Of a stretch of DNA of 32,000 nt, positions 188 through 7,508 are shown in pieces. The position numbers and the translations under genes are program-made. The notes beneath the pieces are model-generated. The model was not told the origin of the DNA. It searched no databases and saw only the letters and a program-made list of their open reading frames with translations. Position 1 is the first letter of the stretch. The number at the start of each line of letters is the position of its first letter. This DNA is from Ureaplasma parvum serovar 3 str. ATCC 27815 (GTDB lineage Bacteria; Bacillota_I; Bacilli_A; Mycoplasmatales; Mycoplasmoidaceae), in the NCBI RefSeq assembly GCF_000019345.1, contig NC_010503.1, positions 120,001 to 152,000 of the forward strand. Reading direction: 5' to 3'.

Positions 188-3100
188 TTAACCACGGAAT
201 TTTTCAAAATATTCGAGTAATTTTTCAGTAGCATTTTCTTTTATTTTAGACCTATTACTATTCTGATTACTTTTTTTAAAAAAAGAGGTAGGAGGCATTA
301 AATTAACAATATCTACTCCATTTTCATTAAATTCATTATTTTCAAATGCTTTTTTCATAAATTCAAATGTTTTTTTGTTATCTAATTTATTTTCATTAAT
401 TATTTTTATAAGCTCACTTTCTTTTTTATTTTTAATAAACTTACTCCATTCATTAAAAATATCAATTTCATCCTTATTAGGTAGTTTATTAATTTCATTA
501 ACAAATTCAATAATTAAATCTTTCTTTTTTCGCGCTTTTAGACTAGATAAAATATCTCTTTCTAGATCGTGATATTTAACTTCTTTTAGATCTTTTTTGA
601 GCTTTTCATTCATTAACTTAAGAATATAATCAACACCAATATCTTGTTGACTAATTAATTCAATTTTAAAATCAAGATCACTAACAATGCTATCTGTTTC
701 CATACGTTTTTTATCTTGATATTTATCACGCAACCCGATATATATACTTTGATAATCTTGCATTTCTGTACCAATAAGATCATCGTTTTGTTCAAATTCA
801 CTAAATTGTGAAAGCAAATTTTTATATTTTAAAATATCACCAAAAAGTTTAATAAAAATTCTTTCCTCTTCTTTTGTTCCATTAAAAGGAATTTTAAAGT
901 TACTTTTTAATTCTTCTACTAAGTTTCGATAACCTTGTATATATTGATTATCTTCATTATAATATCCTTCATAATATTCTTTAAATGATCTTAAAATAGC
1001 GATCGAAGAATTAATATTGCTCTCTGATGAAAATAATCTTAAAGCTTCATTCACTTCATCTTCTAAATTTATGAAAAAGACAATATTACCATTTGATTTA
1101 ACACCATTAAGAATTCGATTGGTTCGCGACATTGCTTGAATTAAACTATGATATTTTAGTTTTTTGTCCAATCATAATGTATTTAAAGTTGTTGCATCAA
1201 AACCTGTTAAAAACATATTAACAACGATTGCTATATCTAAGCTTCGATCCTTTAATCTCAAGCTAAAGTCTTTATAGTAATTATTAAAATTAGCATTATC
1301 TGTTGAGTATGATGTCCCAAACATTTCATTATAATCTTTAATCGCTTCATCAAGAAAATTACGTGAATCTAAATCAAGTTGATTAGTGTTTTCGTTATTC
1401 TCATCTAATAGTTCAAAATTAGAAAGTTCATTATCATTACTTTCTTGTTCGCTTGGTAAATAACTATAAATTAATCCAATTTTTAATTTTTCTTCTTGAG
1501 GAAATTTTTGTTGTTGTTTTTTAAATTCTGAATAATATATTTTAGCTGCATTAATAGAAGAGCAAGCTAGAATAGAATTAAATCCATTTAGTGTTGTTAA
1601 TACTTTATTTTCGCTTAATTTATTTCTGCTAGTAATAACTTCATTTATATTAGCAATCTTATTATGTTCAAAAAATTCTTCATTTCTTTTGGTTAAACGA
1701 TTATAGTTTTTTAAAATAAAATCAACAATTTCAGAAATACGAATCGGATTTTCCAAAGCTTCTTTTTTATCTATTCCAGTTGATGATGTTTCATCGTCAA
1801 TGTCATCTTTTTCGCTAAGTGTTTTATAATACTCCGTTCTAAAACCTAAAACATTACCATCACGAATAGCTTTATCAATTGTATATTTATGTAAACAAGC
1901 TCCAAAAAGATGCTCTGTTGTAAAGAAAATATTTTTATTTTTGACATTACTATTTTCTTCTAAAATAGGTGTGCCTGTAAACCCAAAAATCATATATTTT
2001 TTAAAAGATTTTTTAGTAATTTTTTTATGTAAATCACCAAATTGAGAACGATGACATTCATCAAAAACAAGAACAACATTTTTAGAATAAATAGGATGTT
2101 TTGGATTTTTACTAATGAATATGCCAAGTTTTTGAATGGTTGTAATAATAATTTTATTCTCTTGATTTCCAATTTGCTTAGCTAGTTCATTAACATTTGT
2201 ATTAGCACTAACACATCCTTTAGAATACTTTTCATATTCTTTTGTTGTTTGATAGTCTAAATCTTTTCGATCAACAACAAATAGAACCTTATCCACACCT
2301 TCAATTTCTTTTGCTAAAGCGGCAGTTTTAAATGATGTAAGAGTTTTTCCGCTTCCTGTTGTGTGTCAAATATAACCACCAGCGCCTGTAGTTCCTAATA
2401 ATTTTTTATCATTTAAAGAAATCTTAATTCGATTAATAATTCTTTCAGTTGCAACAATTTGGTATGGTCTTAAAACCATTAACGTATTATCGCTTGTAAA
2501 AACACAATATTTTGTCAAAATATTTAAAATAGTATGTTTAGCAAAAAAGGTCTGACAAAAATCGATTAAATCAAGAATTTGATTATTTTTTGAATCAGCT
2601 CAGTATGATGTAAATTCAAAAGAATTACTTGTTTTTTTAGAGTTTGTATTATTTCTTTCTTTTATAGAAGTTTCTCTAGTTGTATTTGAATAATATTTAG
2701 TTTGTGTACCATTAGAAATAACATAAATTTGCGTGTAAAGATATAAATCTGTAAACGAATGATTTGCATATCTTTTAATTTGATTAAAAGCTTCTTTAAG
2801 ATTAGTTCCTCGTCTTTTTAGTTCAATATGTACTAATGGAAGTCCATTAATCAAAATAGACACATCATATCGTGTTTTTTGTTGATTATCTAAATTGTTA
2901 TTTTGATATTGATTAATAACTTGAATAGAATTATTATGAATATTATTTTTATCAATTATCTTTATATTTTTGGTGATACTATCTTTATCTTTTTTTAAAG
3001 GGTAGCTATAATCTTCATGAATTTTTTTTGATCTTGCTTCAATTCCATCATTAGGATTTAATAAATAAGTACTTAAAAAAGATTCTCATTCATTATTAGT

Positions 3101-3325
3101 AAATTGATAATTATTAAGTTTTTCGATTTGTTTTCTTAAATTATTTTTTAAATCATTATTATTTTTAATAGGTAAGTATTCATAACCTTGTGCAATTAAT
3201 AATTTAATAAATGTTTCTTCTAATTCAGCTTCACTTTCAAATTTATTCGAATGAACTTTAATTGATTTAAATTCAGCAACAACCGTTGAATTTTCATGTT
3301 CTGCTAATAGTACCTTATTTTCCAT
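188..3325 (-). CDS. hsdR: Type I restriction enzyme R subunit (HsdR), apparently intact, 1045 aa under code 4
   Basis: Track ORFs 188-1171, 1172-2296, 2600-2863 and 3086-3325 share one frame. I translated the gap 2297-2599 and the 1172 junction by hand and they are broken only by TGA. The gap 2864-3085 is in phase but was not translated by hand. Motifs read: LRPYQIVATERI, GGYIWHTTGSGKT (motif I, with W encoded by TGA), VFDECHRSQ (motif II), QAMSRTNR (motif VI). ATG at 3323-3325 is preceded by AAGGAG; TAA at 188-190. Confidence 0.95.
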
Positions 3326-3345: not shown

Positions 3346-3867
3346 TTAATATTTTTTAAAATCTAATAATTTATTTCGATAGTATTCATATTGTTTTTTG
3401 CGTTGTTTGATTTCAAAAGGTAATCCTACGCCAATATCTTTTGTATATGCTTCTAATTTATCTAGGATTTCAACAATTTTATTTTGGATTGAAATGTGAG
3501 GGATAGGAATTAATAATTCAATAATCTCTATCATGTTTGGATGTTTTACAGATGCACCACGATAATTTTCTTCAATAAGCATTTTATTTGCTATCAAAAA
3601 ATAGTAAATAAATTTTAAATTACATTCTTTTTTGTTTTTTTGTGAAAAAATTATATTTAAACTATCTATGAAATAACCATTATAGTATTTTATTATTGGA
3701 GAACCACCAGATGGCAAAGCAATTATTTCGCCATAATTAATATTATTATCATTTTCATTATATTTTATATATCCATCATACAATCCTGTTGAAAGAAGTT
3801 TAACATTACCAAAATTACACTTTTCATATCGTTTTAATTCGTTTGCAGATATATGCTTAAATGACAA
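3346..3867 (-). CDS. hsdS: HsdS module A: one target-recognition domain plus a C-terminal conserved region. It has no ATG start, and its frame is open upstream to 4029.
   Basis: The module ends ...LIPIPHISIQNKIVEILDKLEAYTKDIGVGLPFEIKQRKKQYEYYRNKLLDF, the HsdS conserved-region signature. The frame extended upstream with TGA=Trp reads ...LSRDYIWTLKNIYEKLVQNNVKYKKLWEIVNFDKKFKG, a typical central linker plus TRD start. The M in the ORF track is really a TTG. Confidence 0.85.
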   Translation of the reverse strand: MSFKHISANELKRYEKCNFGNVKLLSTGLYDGYIKYNENDNNINYGEIIALPSGGSPIIKYYNGYFIDSLNIIFSQKNKKECNLKFIYYFLIANKMLIEENYRGASVKHPNMIEIIELLIPIPHISIQNKIVEILDKLEAYTKDIGVGLPFEIKQRKKQYEYYRNKLLDFKKY

Positions 3868-4004
3868 TATTTCATTTTGTTTTTCTTTTGGAACTCCTTT
3901 AAATTTTTTGTCAAAATTAACTATTTCTCAAAGTTTTTTATATTTAACATTGTTTTGAACTAATTTTTCATATATATTCTTTAATGTTCAAATGTAATCC
4001 CTAC

Positions 4005-4316
4005 TTAGCTCTCTCTCTCTCGTGCTATATTATCAAAGTCTAATAATTTATTACGATAATATTCGTATTGTTTTTTACGTTGTTCGATTTCAAGAGGAAG
4101 TCCAGTATTAATATCTTTCGTATATGTTTCCAATTTATCTAAAATCTCAACAATTTTATTTTGGATTGAAATGGGCGGAATAGGGATTATGATTTCTTGC
4201 ATAACATTACTCATTAATTTTGGATTTCCTGATGCTTGATTTACATGTTTTTTAGTAATTTTTCTCAAAATAAAGCTCAAATATTTTGTGTTTAAATTAG
4301 AATTAATGAACTTGAT
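4005..4316 (-). CDS. hsdS: HsdS module B: the C-terminal third of a TRD plus a conserved region, 5'-truncated with no start codon
   Basis: The open frame from 4316 reads KFINSNLNTKYLSFILRKITKKHVNQASGNPKLMSNVMQEIIIPIPPISIQNKIVEILDKLETYTKDINTGLPLEIEQRKKQYEYYRNKLLDFDNIARERES*. The track ORF 4005-4280 starts at a TTG. TAA at 4005-4007. Confidence 0.85.
   Translation of the reverse strand: MKFINSNLNTKYLSFILRKITKKHVNQASGNPKLMSNVMQEIIIPIPPISIQNKIVEILDKLETYTKDINTGLPLEIEQRKKQYEYYRNKLLDFDNIARERES
4009..4021 (-). repeat. (GA)6G dinucleotide tract (CTCTCTCTCTCTC on the plus strand) at the junction of hsdS modules B and A
   Basis: Read directly from the sequence. It encodes the RERE of ...DNIARERES* at the end of module B. 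Confidence 0.95.
4147..4188. repeat. left copy of a 42-bp perfect inverted repeat (partner at 5807-5848) in the hsdS conserved region
   Basis: The reverse complement of 4147-4188 equals 5807-5848 exactly (AATCCCTATTCCGCCCATTTCAATCCAAAATAAAATTGTTGA, encoding IPIPPISIQNKIVE). Module A shares 27 bp of it as a direct repeat at 3470-3496. Confidence 0.95.
4295..4305 (+). repeat. AATTAGAATTA core, copy 1 (breakpoint of the hsdM 3' part on plus and of hsdS module B on minus)
   Basis: Exact 11-mer shared with 6829-6839 in direct orientation and with 6290-6300 in inverted orientation. It has the dyad form AATT-AG-AATT. Confidence 0.8.
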
Positions 4317-4346
4317 CTAGGTAATTATCAAGATAATACAATCGAT

Positions 4347-5393
4347 GTGTTCGGTGATGCTTATGAATACTTAATGAGTATGTATGCTGCAAATGCAGGT
4401 AAATCAGGGGGAGAATTTTTCACCCCTCAAGAAGTTAGTGAACTATTAGTAGAATTAACATTAATTGATTTTAATAATGAAAATAAAGATGTTAGAAGAA
4501 AAATTGGAAAAGTTTATGATCCATGTTGTGGTTCTGGATCATTACTTTTAAAGTATGCAAAATTAAATGAAGGAGTTAAATTTTATGGTCAAGAAATTAA
4601 TCTTACTACGTATAATTTAGCAAGAATTAATATGTTTTTGCACAATATAGGTTATGATAAATTTGATATCAAATTAGGTGATACATTACTAGATCCTAAA
4701 CATAATGATGATAAACCTTTTGATGCAATTGTTTCAAATCCTCCATATTCAACAAAATGGGAGGGAAAATCAAATCCTTTATTAGCTAACGATGAGCGAT
4801 TTCATGTTACTCAATTAGCACCTAAAGGAAAAGCTGATTTTGCTTTTGTATTGCATATACTTCATAATTTATCTTCTAGTGGAACAGCAGCTATAGTTAT
4901 GTTTCCAGGAACTTTATATCGAGATCATGCAGAACAAGATATTAGAAAATATTTAGTTGATAATGTTAATGTTGTAGATAGTGTGATTCAATTACCAGAT
5001 AATCTGTTTTTTGGAACAAGTATTTCAACATGTATTATAGTTTTAAGAAAAAACAAAAACAACAATGATAATGCTAATGGTATCTTGTTTGTTGATGCAT
5101 CAAAAGAATTTGTTAAATCTGGTATCAAAAACAAATTAACCAATGCTAATATTAAAAAAATAGTTGATACGATTCGTTTCAAAAAAGAAGTAACTTATTT
5201 TTCAAAACTTGTATCACGAGAAGAAGTTAAAAATAAAAACTATAATTTATCAGTTAACACATATGTGGAAAAAGAAGACACGTCAGAAAAAATTGATATT
5301 AAATTATTAAATATGCAAATTAAAGAAATTGTGGCTAAAATCGAAAAGTTAAGAAAAGAAATTGATGAAATTGTTTTAGAATTAGAAGAATAA
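4347..5393 (+). CDS. hsdM: Type I R-M methyltransferase HsdM, catalytic 3' part only (N-terminal domain missing). The frame is open from 4296.
   Basis: The frame opens as IRINELDLGNYQDNTIDVFGDAYEYLMSMYAANAGKSGGEFFTPQEV, followed by DPCCGSGSLLL (AdoMet motif I) and the NPPY motif (VSNPPYS). There is no ATG or SD; the track start is a GTG. TAA at 5391-5393, 3 nt before the hsdS ATG. Confidence 0.9.
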   Translation: MFGDAYEYLMSMYAANAGKSGGEFFTPQEVSELLVELTLIDFNNENKDVRRKIGKVYDPCCGSGSLLLKYAKLNEGVKFYGQEINLTTYNLARINMFLHNIGYDKFDIKLGDTLLDPKHNDDKPFDAIVSNPPYSTKWEGKSNPLLANDERFHVTQLAPKGKADFAFVLHILHNLSSSGTAAIVMFPGTLYRDHAEQDIRKYLVDNVNVVDSVIQLPDNLFFGTSISTCIIVLRKNKNNNDNANGILFVDASKEFVKSGIKNKLTNANIKKIVDTIRFKKEVTYFSKLVSREEVKNKNYNLSVNTYVEKEDTSEKIDIKLLNMQIKEIVAKIEKLRKEIDEIVLELEE

Positions 5394-5396
5394 ATT

Positions 5397-6302
5397 ATGA
5401 ATAAAATTGAAAAATTAATTAATGAGTTCTGCCCTAATGGAGTGGAGTTTAAAAAATTAAAAAATATAATTACAGTGGCTCCTAAATCACCTTTTGGAGT
5501 TACAAAACTTTTAAAAATGGAAAAGGGAAATTATTTAACAATAACATCAGGGAAGAAATCATTTTATGTTGACAATTTTTTAGTTGATGGAGAATATATA
5601 TTTGTTAATGATGGCGGTCAAGCAGATATAAAATATAATTTTGGAAAAACAATGTATTCTGATCATATATTCGCATTCAAAGTAAATGAATATAACACAA
5701 AATATCTTTACTTCTATCTATTAAATATTTCTAATTTTATTAATAAAAAATTGTTTATAGGTAGTACATTAAAAAATTTAAATAAAAAAGAATTTTTAAA
5801 TCTTGCAATCCCTATTCCGCCCATTTCAATCCAAAATAAAATTGTTGAAATATTAGACAAGTATACAGAATTAGAAACAGAATTAGAAACAGAATTAGAA
5901 ACAGAATTAGAACTTAGAAATAAGCAGTATATATATTATCGCAATGAATTACTAAACTTTAATAAAAATCAAACATTATTAAAGAAAATAATGGACAGTG
6001 ATGATATAAAATCTATTGATCATAAAATTGAGTTTAAAAAGATTGAATATGTGTGTGAAATAAAAAGAGGTCAAGTATACTCTAAGGAATTTATTAATTC
6101 TAATAAAGGAAATTATCCAGTATATTCATCACAAAGTTTAAATGATGGTGTTTTAGGAAATATTAATAAATATGATTTTGATGGTGAATATGTTACTTGA
6201 ACTACAGATGGTGCATATGCGGGAACTGTTTTCTATAGAAAAGGCAAATTTTCAATAACAAATGTGTGTGGAATATTAAAGGTGTTTGATAATTCTAATT
6301 AA
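5397..6302 (+). CDS. hsdS: HsdS module C: TRD1, central conserved region and the N-terminal part of TRD2. It is 3'-truncated and lacks the C-terminal conserved region.
   Basis: The ATG lies immediately after hsdM. Sequence read: ...AIPIPPISIQNKIVEILDKYTELETELETELETELELRNKQYIYYRNELLNF, then a second TRD start, KIEFKKIEYVCEIKRG. One TGA (6199-6201) is read as W. The module ends ...GILKVFDNSN-TAA (6300-6302) without the IPIPP/YYRN region. Confidence 0.9.
5807..5848. repeat. right copy of the 42-bp perfect inverted repeat (partner at 4147-4188)
   Basis: See the entry for 4147-4188. Confidence 0.95.
5865..5912 (+). repeat. 4 perfect tandem copies of the 12-bp unit ACAGAATTAGAA, encoding (TELE)4 in the hsdS central conserved region
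   Basis: Units at 5865-5876, 5877-5888, 5889-5900 and 5901-5912 are identical. Confidence 0.95.
6290..6300 (-). repeat. AATTAGAATTA core, copy 2 (inverted, TAATTCTAATT on plus) at the truncated 3' end of hsdS module C
   Basis: Exact reverse complement of copies 1 and 3. With flanks it shares 14 bp (TTAATTAGAATTAT) with copy 3. Confidence 0.8.
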
Positions 6303-6340
6303 CAAACTTAAAAATATAAATTTATAAAGGGTTTATAAAT

Positions 6341-6904
6341 ATGGATAATAAAAAAGAAATTGAACGAAACAATTTACATGCAACAATTTGAAAAATTGCT
6401 GATGAGCTCCGTGGCGCAATTGATGGATGAGATTTTAAACAATATGTTTTAGGAATATTATTTTATCGATATATATCAGAAAACTTAACTAAATATATTA
6501 ACGATAATGAGCATAAAATAGGTGATCATGATTTTAACTATGAAACATGTAATGATGATGATGTAGATGAAGAAATGAAAATAACCTTAATTAAAGAAAA
6601 AGGTTTTTATATTAAGCCGTCATTTTTGTTTGCTAATATTGTTAAAAATGCTGAAAAAAATGAAAATTTAAATGAAACTTTGGAAACTGTTTTTAACAAT
6701 ATTGAAGGATCATCCTCTGGTTATGATTCTGAAAAAAATTTAAAAGGGTTATTTAATGATATTGATGTTAATAATAGTCGTTTAGGAAGTACTACACAAG
6801 AAAGAAATAAAAGACTAGCAAGAATTTTAATTAGAATTATATATAAAAATATGGATTTATTAATTTTAAAACCATATATAAATAAAAAAGAGATTCCTAA
6901 TTAA
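6341..6904 (+). CDS. hsdM: HsdM N-terminal domain fragment (5' part of hsdM) ending in 21 unrelated codons
   Basis: ATG at 6341. With two TGA=Trp codons it reads MDNKKEIERNNLHATIWKIADELRGAIDGWDFKQYVLGILFYRYISENL... (HsdM_N signature), then ...SRLGSTTQERNKRLARILIRI, then a non-homologous tail IYKNMDLLILKPYINKKEIPN*. Confidence 0.9.
6829..6839 (+). repeat. AATTAGAATTA core, copy 3 (breakpoint at the end of the hsdM 5' part)
   Basis: Exact 11-mer. It sits in the same codon phase (A|ATT|AGA|ATT|A) as copy 1. Confidence 0.8.
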
Positions 6905-6941: not shown

Positions 6942-7508
6942 TTAATGTTGGTGACTGTGATGATGATGGTGTTCATGTTCGTGACCACCACAGCAATCAT
7001 CTTTAGTTCCACCACAACATTCTTCTTGGGTTTCTGATGTTTTTGTTTCCGAGTCACAGCAAACTTCATGTTCATGTTCGTGACCACCACAACAATCATC
7101 TTTAGCTCCGCCACAGCATTCTTCTTCAACTTTTACTTCTGAATTACAACAAGCTTCATTTTCTTCATCGCTACAGCATTCATCTTCACAACAGCAATCT
7201 TCTTCATAATCATCATCTTCACTAAAATGAATATCTAAGAAAACTTCTGATAAATCTAATACTGTATCATTAGAAATTAAAAAAGCATCAATTTTTGCTT
7301 GTAACTCTTCTTTTTTAAGATCAAATAAAATGTTTGTTGATTCAAAATCAGCATAATTAATATACAACTCTGATCCTAGATCGCTTGTTTTATAAGCTTC
7401 ATCTCCACCAAGTTCTAAATATGAATCAATATCTTCTGGAAGAATATTAATTGTACGTGCGTTGTCTAAATTAATGTAAGAAACACCTGTTTTAATGTAT
7501 TTAGCCAT
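6942..7508 (-). CDS. acidic protein of unknown function with a Cys/His-rich C-terminal tail (putative metal-binding)
   Basis: A 188-aa ORF with an ATG start and AAGGAG 7 nt upstream. The last 86 residues contain 17 Cys (all in CC or CCC runs) and 12 His, including two EECCGG(A/T)[12 protein letters not shown] units and a terminal HHHHHSHQH. Confidence 0.8.

What the first reader, a model, noticed from the sequence alone, without database searches (positions are those of the whole stretch)
3346..6302. Three hsdS modules on two strands share long exact repeats that could drive TRD shuffling
A 42-bp perfect inverted repeat (4147-4188 vs 5807-5848) links the conserved regions of modules B and C. 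Module A shares 27 bp of it (3470-3496) in direct orientation with B. A further 12-bp match, AACACAAAATAT (5694-5705 vs the reverse complement of 4281-4292), links the TRD ends NTKYL of C-TRD1 and B. Inversion across the 42-bp repeat would place C's start codon and TRD1 in front of conserved region B, the (GA)n tract and module A on the hsdR strand. That would be a different two-TRD hsdS from the one made by the 11-bp-site inversions. The locus thus holds four TRD-coding segments (C-TRD1, the split C/B TRD2, the B fragment and A) that can in principle be combined several ways. The conservation is far tighter at the DNA level than protein constraint requires: the peptide IPIPPISIQNKIVE could be encoded many other ways.
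Basis: partly seen in the sequence, partly recalled or inferred. Interest (0 to 1): 0.6.

Follow-up and report, generated by a model that had tools for sequence, protein, structure and literature searches.

The report
Conserved joints of a modular hsdS
The long repeats are the conserved "joint" that follows each of three DNA-recognition modules of one Ureaplasma restriction-specificity gene; strains have swapped modules at these joints over evolutionary time, but no public assembly shows them working as an inversion switch, and the rearrangements that are seen use separate 11-bp sites.

Summary
Observation confirmed. The 42-bp perfect inverted repeat, its 27-bp share with module A and the 12-mer are all present. 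The 42-mer and 27-mer occur nowhere else in the 751,679-bp genome.

Interpretation partly supported. The repeats encode the IPIPP(I/H)SIQNKIVE box that opens the conserved region after each target-recognition domain (TRD). In other public assemblies of the same locus, hsdM (528 aa) is intact. There, modules C, B and A form one 616-aa hsdS frame with three Methylase_S domains. The three boxes then lie as direct repeats 600 and 677 bp apart.

The inverted orientation in this window is a by-product of two inversions at TTAGAA-core 11-bp sites. One of those sites shares a 13-mer with the published XerC site of the mba locus.

Twenty-eight assemblies plus the window were typed. Twelve sequences span box B, eight span box C and eighteen span box A, all with parental flanks. 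None carries a junction of the predicted inversion or deletion type.

Four natural hsdS alleles are nevertheless mosaics. A's TRD is found joined to all three conserved-region types, with breakpoints at both edges of the 42-mer. The boxes are therefore evolutionary recombination joints, not a demonstrated switch. Read-level data were unavailable. This is an ordinary feature of type I systems and a new member of a known kind.

The parts
188..3325 (-). hsdR, 1045 aa with TGA=Trp, intact
   Evidence: Pfam HSDR_N, SWI2_SNF2, T1R_D3-like and EcoR124_C
3346..4008 (-). Module A: linker, TRD-gamma and C-terminal conserved region CR3. It has no ATG of its own and is read only when the GA tract puts it in frame with B.
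   Evidence: Pfam Methylase_S. Fused to B in the 616-aa frame of L122.
3458..3511 (-). Box of CR3 (IPIPHISIQNKIVEILDK). It contains the 27-mer at 3470-3496.
4009..4021 (-). (GA)6G tract between CR2 and the linker of module A
   Evidence: Sequence. 4 to 9 units in other assemblies; 5 or 8 units fuse B to A.
4005..4295 (-). Module B: last part of TRD-beta plus conserved region CR2
   Evidence: Pfam Methylase_S profile 99-168. Continuous with C in L109/L122.
4147..4188 (-). 42-bp repeat, copy in the CR2 box
4281..4292 (-). 12-mer encoding NTKY of the TRD-end motif LNTKYL (TRD-beta)
4295..4305 (+). 11-bp inversion site s1 (AATTAGAATTA)
   Evidence: Junction of rearranged assemblies
4308..5393 (+). 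hsdM C-terminal part (N6_Mtase)
   Evidence: Pfam E 1e-111
5397..6302 (+). Module C: N-terminus, TRD-alpha, central conserved region CR1 and most of TRD-beta
   Evidence: Pfam Methylase_S, two stretches
5694..5705 (+). 12-mer encoding NTKY of the TRD-end motif YNTKYL (TRD-alpha)
5807..5848 (+). 42-bp repeat, copy in the CR1 box
5865..5912 (+). Four 12-bp units encoding TELE in CR1
   Evidence: D5. 2, 3 or 4 units in other assemblies.
6094..6103 (-). Fourth, 10-bp copy of the site (s4) inside TRD-beta
   Evidence: Used as a junction with s1 in GCA_037405195 (L121)
6290..6300 (-). Site s2, with arms GTTTGATAA / GTTTGTTAA around TTCTAA
6341..6839 (+). hsdM N-terminal part (HsdM_N)
   Evidence: Pfam
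6829..6839 (+). Site s3

Best explanation
The three repeats are the DNA of one protein motif, IPIPP(I/H)SIQNKIVEILDK. This motif is the end of the Methylase_S domain and the start of the conserved helical region that follows every TRD. The organism is inferred to be Ureaplasma parvum. Its hsdS is modular: N-terminus, TRD-alpha, CR1 with TELE repeats, TRD-beta, CR2, (GA)n plus linker, TRD-gamma, CR3. In the intact operon (hsdM-hsdS-hsdR on one strand) the three boxes are direct repeats inside one reading frame. In this genome two site-specific inversions at TTAGAA-core 11-bp sites have flipped the 5' two-thirds of hsdS together with the 3' part of hsdM. They have also flipped the 5' part of hsdM. 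That alone is why the CR1 box now lies inverted relative to the CR2 and CR3 boxes. At the DNA level the box acts as a universal joint. Homologous recombination or gene conversion within it has reassorted TRDs and conserved-region types among strains. This also keeps the CR1 and CR2 copies nearly identical. Shown here: the repeats, the one-frame arrangement, the mosaic alleles and the lack of recombinant junctions in assemblies. Inferred: that the exchanges were RecA-type events between strains or sister copies, and that they are rare compared with the site-specific inversions.
For: (1) L109/L122 and at least four similar contigs carry intact hsdM (528 aa) followed by a 616-aa hsdS equal to C+B+A. 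Pfam finds three Methylase_S stretches in it. The boxes lie 600 and 677 bp apart as direct repeats. (2) All junctions of rearranged assemblies fall at s1, s2, s3 or s4. Ends of non-Logan contigs fall at s1/s2 (L135, L136, L145) and never at a box. (3) Junction typing gives 12, 8 and 18 parental junctions at boxes B, C and A, and no recombinant of allele 1. (4) The same 60 nt of TRD-gamma end is followed by the CR3 type in allele 1, by the 42-mer plus CR1/TELE in allele 2 (L118), and by the 42-mer plus CR2/GA in allele 3 (L146). Alleles 2 and 3 diverge exactly at the 3' end of the 42-mer. (5) Allele 4 (P0006/L147) joins alpha-CR1 (96% to allele 1) to delta (98% to allele 2), then CR2-GA and a new TRD. 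(6) Codon test: 14 of 14 identical codons has P = 4.4e-4, while A is at expectation. (7) recA is present and open.
Against: No read-level data could be obtained, so rare intragenomic events at the boxes are not excluded. Logan contigs break 30 nt into the 42-mer. This is what a k=31 graph does at any 42-bp repeat, so those assemblies cannot tell parental from recombinant forms. The excess identity of the CR1 and CR2 boxes implies some recent exchange between copies within a genome or lineage. Allele 4 rests on a single 1.9-kb Logan contig plus a 15-member protein cluster. Allele 3 comes from one broken metagenome contig.
Confidence: 0.8

Rival explanations
1. The 42-bp inverted repeat, together with the A box, is a working inversion site. 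It flips 4189-5806 and produces an alternative alpha-gamma hsdS, giving a second layer of programmed specificity switching.
For: The product would be a well-formed frame of 416 aa with (GA)5. It has the same architecture as natural allele 3, which is TRD, CR2-GA, TRD, CR3. recA is present. At least five sequences, the window included, keep the inverted orientation and so offer the opportunity.
Against: No junction of this type occurs in any spanning assembly, and no matching protein is among the best hits. hsdM would remain split after the event. No recombinase gene lies in the locus: the three Phage_integrase hits are at genome positions 189, 267 and 658 kb, and there is no serine recombinase. 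There is no second inverted repeat at the 5' end of the TRD, as classical shufflons have. In the functional arrangement the repeats are direct, so recombination there deletes rather than switches.
Confidence: 0.07
2. Protein constraint and codon bias only. The boxes are identical because the peptide is conserved and the AT-rich genome leaves few codon choices. They play no part in recombination.
For: 8.4 of 14 codons are expected to be identical by bias alone. A versus B and A versus C are exactly at expectation, as is the rest of the conserved regions. The 12-mer encodes the conserved TRD-end motif NTKYL.
Against: P = 4.4e-4 for the 14-codon run. The mosaic alleles change partner exactly at the two edges of the 42-mer. 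That pattern requires crossovers or conversion tracts bounded by the box.
Confidence: 0.12
3. Assembly artefact. The opposed orientation of the modules is a misjoin in this genome.
For: None found.
Against: The same arrangement occurs in four independent assemblies (L108, L111, L134, L143). A published description calls UU095-UU100 'recombined in U. parvum' (PMC2751442). Assemblers do not join at 11-bp repeats.
Confidence: 0.01

Closest known systems
Inverting type I loci (hsdS shufflons): Mycoplasma pulmonis hsd1/hsd2 with HvsR, and Streptococcus pneumoniae SpnD39III/ivr with CreX/PsrA. The class is described in PMC7394358.
   Same: hsdS parts lie on both strands of this genome. There is repeated DNA in the conserved region. 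Inversions really occur at the locus in natural populations.
   Different: Here the inversions use 10-11-bp sites inside hsdM, inside a TRD and upstream of hsdM. They do not use the conserved-region repeats. They break and restore hsdM and hsdS, an on/off effect, rather than exchanging TRDs. No second complete hsdS copy exists, no recombinase gene is in the locus, and no 5' inverted repeat is present.
TRD reassortment by homologous recombination in hsdS conserved regions. This rests on my own knowledge of hybrid specificities in enteric type I families, Lactococcus plasmid hsdS (cited in PMC5903667 as O'Sullivan 2000), and pneumococcal hsdS TRD variation (PMC7557576).
   Same: Mosaic alleles share TRDs in different combinations, with breakpoints in conserved regions.
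   Different: Three-module genes take part. One TRD (gamma) occupies position 1 in two alleles and position 3 in another. Two different central conserved-region types, TELE and GA-linker, are exchanged as well.
AG[n]/SSR-containing hsdS of Mycoplasmataceae and the SSR-extended three-TRD HsdS of Mannheimia haemolytica (Atack et al. 2020, PMC7383803); NgoAV poly-G hsdS.
   Same: A dinucleotide tract lies between TRD modules and decides whether the downstream TRD is translated. Tract length differs between strains, 4-9 units here.
   Different: The tract follows the second conserved region of an otherwise complete two-TRD hsdS. The choice is therefore two versus three TRDs. It is combined with inversion switching of the same gene.
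[quoted passage not shown]
   Same: Site s2 reads like the published XerC substrate. It shares GAATTATCAAACA with IRmba. That 13-mer occurs only at the three mba sites and at s2 in the genome. Junctions as short as 10 bp were reported there too.
   Different: The central six bases are TTAGAA here, against TTTGAA (mba) and TTTAAA (UU172). The hsd locus was not among the substrates tested in those papers. This concerns the 11-bp sites, not the 42-bp repeat.
EcoR124I / EcoR124II TAEL repeat (own knowledge).
   Same: A 4-aa, 12-bp tandem repeat in the central conserved region has variable copy number, 2-4 here.
   Different: The effect on spacer length is not tested for this enzyme.

Membership tests
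Type I specificity subunit (HsdS, Pfam Methylase_S) | One Methylase_S domain per TRD, ending in the conserved box | tested here: met
   A, B and C each hit PF01420. The joined 616-aa protein has three stretches, E 1.5e-59.
Type I specificity subunit (HsdS, Pfam Methylase_S) | Encoded beside hsdM and hsdR | tested here: met
Inverting type I locus (hsdS shufflon) | Two or more hsdS copies in opposite orientation in the functional arrangement | tested here: not met
   In the arrangement with intact hsdM, all modules lie on one strand in one frame.
Inverting type I locus (hsdS shufflon) | Inverted repeats both before the 5' TRD and between the TRDs | tested here: not met
   Only the conserved-region box is repeated. 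No inverted repeat of the N-terminal region was found.
Inverting type I locus (hsdS shufflon) | Alternative forms whose junctions lie at those repeats | tested here: not met
   No recombinant junction among 12, 8 and 18 spanning sequences. Read-level test not possible.
Inverting type I locus (hsdS shufflon) | Recombinase gene in or beside the locus | tested here: not met
   None in the 32-kb window. The three tyrosine recombinase hits lie elsewhere and there is no serine recombinase.
SSR phase-variable hsdS (AG[n] group of Mycoplasmataceae) | Dinucleotide tract of at least 5 units between TRD modules, inside the reading frame | tested here: met
   (GA)6 at 4009-4021 between CR2 and TRD-gamma
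SSR phase-variable hsdS (AG[n] group of Mycoplasmataceae) | Tract length varies between isolates and changes the product | tested here: met
   4-9 units. 5 or 8 units give fused frames (616, 308, 290 aa). Other lengths give separate 91-98-aa and 173-aa frames.
XerC-type site-specific inversion of U. parvum (mba / UU172 class) | Short site resembling IRmba / IRUU172 | tested here: met
   The 13-mer shared with IRmba is found only at mba (3 copies) and s2. Site text from PMC3599477.
XerC-type site-specific inversion of U. parvum (mba / UU172 class) | Natural forms that differ by inversion or deletion exactly at the sites | tested here: met
XerC-type site-specific inversion of U. parvum (mba / UU172 class) | XerC binds and recombines the site | not testable with these tools
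   Needs EMSA or the M. pneumoniae co-transformation assay of PMC3599477.

The most novel reading that the evidence does not exclude
The near-identity of the boxes is actively maintained, and the boxes are used within single lineages. In the 'off' arrangement, RecA-dependent inversion across the 42-bp repeat would build an alpha-[GA]-gamma hsdS. Together with events at the 11-bp sites this could yield a working enzyme of new specificity. The locus would then combine site-specific on/off switching, two SSR switches and homologous TRD shuffling in one gene.
Probability: 0.07. Interest if true: 0.55.

Novelty: new member of a known kind. Interest (0 to 1): 0.33.

Why it matters
It separates two things at a heavily rearranged restriction locus of a human urogenital mycoplasma. 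The eye-catching long repeats are the ordinary conserved joints of hsdS. The rearrangements actually seen use short, XerC-like sites. The module map covers six TRDs, two central conserved-region types and four alleles. It gives a framework for reading Ureaplasma methylomes and strain differences in restriction barriers, which bear on the poor genetic tractability of these organisms. The general principle, TRD exchange in conserved regions, is long known.

Tried and rejected
I did not pass run ids from other tools to read laying.
- A genome-contig scan with HsdR found only relatives at 53% identity or less, which are useless for isoforms.
- A metagenome scan for the TRD-alpha/box junction found nothing. 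A second scan, for the 27-mer core, found one contig, L146.
- Look-ups with intact HsdM, with A and with C returned only arrangements already seen.
- A serine invertase was considered because the site has a 2-bp asymmetric centre. It was rejected because the genome has no Resolvase domain.
- Allele 2 was considered as a simple derivative of allele 1 by an A-box x C-box inversion. It was rejected because allele 2 carries a TRD (delta) that allele 1 lacks, and the predicted products differ.
- The 12-mer was considered as a recombination site. It was rejected as the conserved TRD-end motif NTKYL with biased codons; no junction maps there.
- The Logan contig ends at window 4176, 4188 and 5836 were considered as evidence of heterogeneity. 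They were rejected as the expected k=31 breaks.
Full report
**1. Observation**

All three stated repeats are real.
- 4147-4188 is the exact reverse complement of 5807-5848, and the match does not extend further. It lies in a 54-nt arm that is 94% complementary (I2).
- 3470-3496 repeats 27 bp of it, in direct orientation with B. A and B share 167 nt at 82% (D1).
- The 12-mer is at 5694-5705 and, reversed, at 4281-4292.
- The 42-mer and 27-mer are unique to this locus in the 751,679-bp genome.
- The 12-mer is expected 0.04 times per window and occurs twice.

**2. Anatomy**

The window reads with TGA as Trp. Pfam gives the following layout.
- hsdR: 188-3325 (-).
- Module A: 3346-4008 (-).
- (GA)6G tract: 4009-4021.
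- Module B: 4005-4295 (-).
- N6_Mtase part of hsdM: 4308-5393 (+).
- Module C: 5397-6302 (+).
- HsdM_N part of hsdM: 6341-6839 (+).
- The 11-mer AATTAGAATTA sits at 4295-4305 (+), 6290-6300 (-) and 6829-6839 (+), exactly at the three breaks.

The organism is inferred to be Ureaplasma parvum. Exact HsdR copies lie in NCBI assemblies GCA_000171355.1 and GCA_000828735.1. The UU095-UU100 locus is described as split and "recombined in U. parvum" (PMC2751442). I also recall the genome length as that of serovar 3 ATCC 27815; this last point is from memory.

**3. Natural forms of the locus**

Exact-protein look-ups with HsdR, the 188-aa neighbour, HsdM, A and C gave about 28 independent assemblies. 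I mapped these onto the window.
- Five sequences, the window included, have the window arrangement.
- L109/L122 and at least four similar contigs have both segments the other way round. This gives hsdM (528 aa), hsdS (616 aa) and hsdR on one strand. Five further contigs carry the intact hsdM.
- Two assemblies have lost everything between s1 and s3, which are direct repeats.
- One (L121) has inverted between s1 and a fourth site copy at 6094-6103.
- One has lost the whole locus.
- In one metagenome, one contig ends at s1 and another contig is exactly 4251-6300. This is the pattern expected of an invertible segment. Paralanov et al. noted a similar small contig for serovar 1 (PMC3511179).
- The sister species genome G017 keeps a remnant with the hsdM 5' part in the 'restored' orientation.

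**4. What the repeats are**

In the 616-aa frame the three boxes read IPIPPISIQNKIVEILDK (after TRD-alpha and after TRD-beta) and IPIPHISIQNKIVEILDK (after TRD-gamma). Pfam finds three Methylase_S stretches. The rejoined TRD-beta matches profile positions 4-168. The boxes are then direct repeats 600 and 677 bp apart. The inverted orientation of the 42-bp pair in this window is therefore a consequence of the s1-s2 inversion.

Three-module HsdS proteins of about 600-640 aa are common among homologues (35-48% identity, full coverage). Relatives carry a poly-G tract where this gene has (GA)n (P0019 and P0004; L100).

**5. Is the DNA identity more than the peptide demands?**

Only in part. Codon usage from 302 long frames predicts 8.4 of 14 identical codons, and P = 4.4e-4 for all 14.
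- Over the 18-aa box, C versus B has 14 identical codons against 11.2 expected.
- A versus B and A versus C have 11 and 10 identical codons against 10.8 expected.
- The rest of the conserved regions are also at expectation.

The CR1 and CR2 boxes therefore look homogenised, and A's box does not.

**6. Do the boxes recombine?**

Within allele-1 strains there is no sign of it. Typing the 25 nt on each side of every box gave 12 (B), 8 (C) and 18 (A) parental junctions and no recombinant. Ends of non-Logan contigs fall at the 11-bp sites, not at boxes. Logan contigs stop 30 nt into the 42-mer, as a k=31 graph must. No ~416-aa alpha-gamma protein is among the best hits of the protein search.

Between strains the answer is yes. 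Four alleles were found.
- Allele 1: alpha, TELE-CR1, beta, CR2-GA, gamma, CR3.
- Allele 2 (L118/L125, 432/436 aa): gamma, TELE-CR1, delta, CR3.
- Allele 3 (L146): gamma, CR2-GA, epsilon, CR3.
- Allele 4 (P0006/L147): alpha, TELE-CR1, delta, CR2-GA, zeta.

The same 60 nt of TRD-gamma end is followed by three different conserved-region types. Alleles 2 and 3 are identical through the 42-mer and diverge at its last base. The His-variant box travels with CR3, not with gamma. Both edges of the 42-mer are thus mosaic breakpoints. recA is intact.

**7. The predicted inversion**

Simulated, it gives a 197-aa frame with (GA)6 or a 416-aa frame with (GA)5 on the hsdR strand. The hsdM 5' part stays on the other strand, so no methylase is restored. 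In the 'on' arrangement the same crossover would be an irreversible 600-bp deletion.

**8. How switching at the locus most likely works (context)**

- Read on the complementary strand, site s2 is GTTTGTTAA-TTAGAA-TTATCAAAC. It shares the 13-mer GAATTATCAAACA with the XerC substrate IRmba (PMC3599477).
- That 13-mer occurs only at the three mba sites and at s2 in the genome.
- Zimmerman et al. also saw inversions at 10-bp ATTTAAATTA sites (PMC3047005).
- The genome has three tyrosine recombinases and no serine recombinase.
- I infer that XerC (UU222) drives the hsd inversions; this is not tested.
- GA length (4-9 units) and TELE number (2-4) also vary. These match the AG[n] hsdS class and the three-TRD extension described by Atack et al. 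(PMC7383803).

**9. Verdict**

The repeats are the ordinary conserved joints of a modular hsdS. They have served as evolutionary recombination points. No public assembly shows them as a switch, and read-level data were not available. The finding is a new member of a known kind, of modest interest. The XerC-like sites at the same locus are the more notable feature. Other notes of this scan already cover those sites, and I confirmed them independently here.

Noticed in passing
window 6279-6305 (site s2); genome 428126, 428858, 429945: Site s2 shares the 13-mer GAATTATCAAACA with the published XerC-binding repeat of the mba locus. The 13-mer occurs only at those three mba sites and at s2 in the whole genome. 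The hsd sites look like 9-bp arms around a 6-bp centre: TTAGAA here, TTTGAA at mba, TTTAAA at UU172.
   Followed up: partly
window 6094-6103; L121: A fourth copy of the site (TAATTCTAAT) lies inside TRD-beta. It was used with s1 in assembly GCA_037405195 and gives an in-frame 324-aa hsdS that lacks part of the TRD.
   Followed up: yes
window 4009-4021: The GA tract has 4, 5, 6, 7, 8 or 9 units in different assemblies. Five or eight units fuse module A to B. All spanning contigs with intact hsdM carry the fused 616-aa form.
   Followed up: yes
window 5865-5912: The TELE 12-bp unit number is 2, 3 or 4 among assemblies, in both allele 1 and allele 2 (432-aa versus 436-aa proteins).
   Followed up: yes
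L118, L119, L125: The three allele-2 assemblies have the hsdM 5' part inverted and hsdR broken into two or three frames. The system seems to be decaying in that lineage.
   Followed up: partly
L099 8566-9640 (G017, sister species): A remnant of the locus: conserved region, site, then the hsdM 5' part in the 'restored' orientation. The junction joins two sites of opposite polarity. This suggests a deletion through wrong-orientation pairing of the near-palindromic site (TAATT-AG-AATTA).
   Followed up: partly
L100 3879-6532 (G002, same genus): Four TRD-conserved-region modules lie in tandem on one strand, separated by two poly-G tracts (G12 at about 5190), with 179-nt direct repeats 93% alike between conserved regions. 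SSR-separated tandem modules look like a feature of the genus.
   Followed up: partly
L146 5255-5272 and 5892-5909: In a metagenome contig, TRD-gamma is split by an inversion whose junctions lie at ATAATATTAATTAT. This is another short AT-rich site resembling the XerC-type cores. hsdM is missing there apart from its last codons.
   Followed up: partly
one search hits P0002, P0004 and many others: HsdS proteins of about 600-640 aa with three Methylase_S modules are numerous in public data. In P0002 the first and third TRDs resemble each other. How a three-TRD subunit assembles with HsdM is not known to me.
   Followed up: no
window 6942-7508 (-): A 188-aa protein with a Cys- and His-rich acidic tail has no Pfam family. 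It is conserved next to the locus in all assemblies.
   Followed up: no
genome 507750-508655: A second, degenerate hsdS, interrupted by a stop, lies far from any hsdM or hsdR.
   Followed up: no
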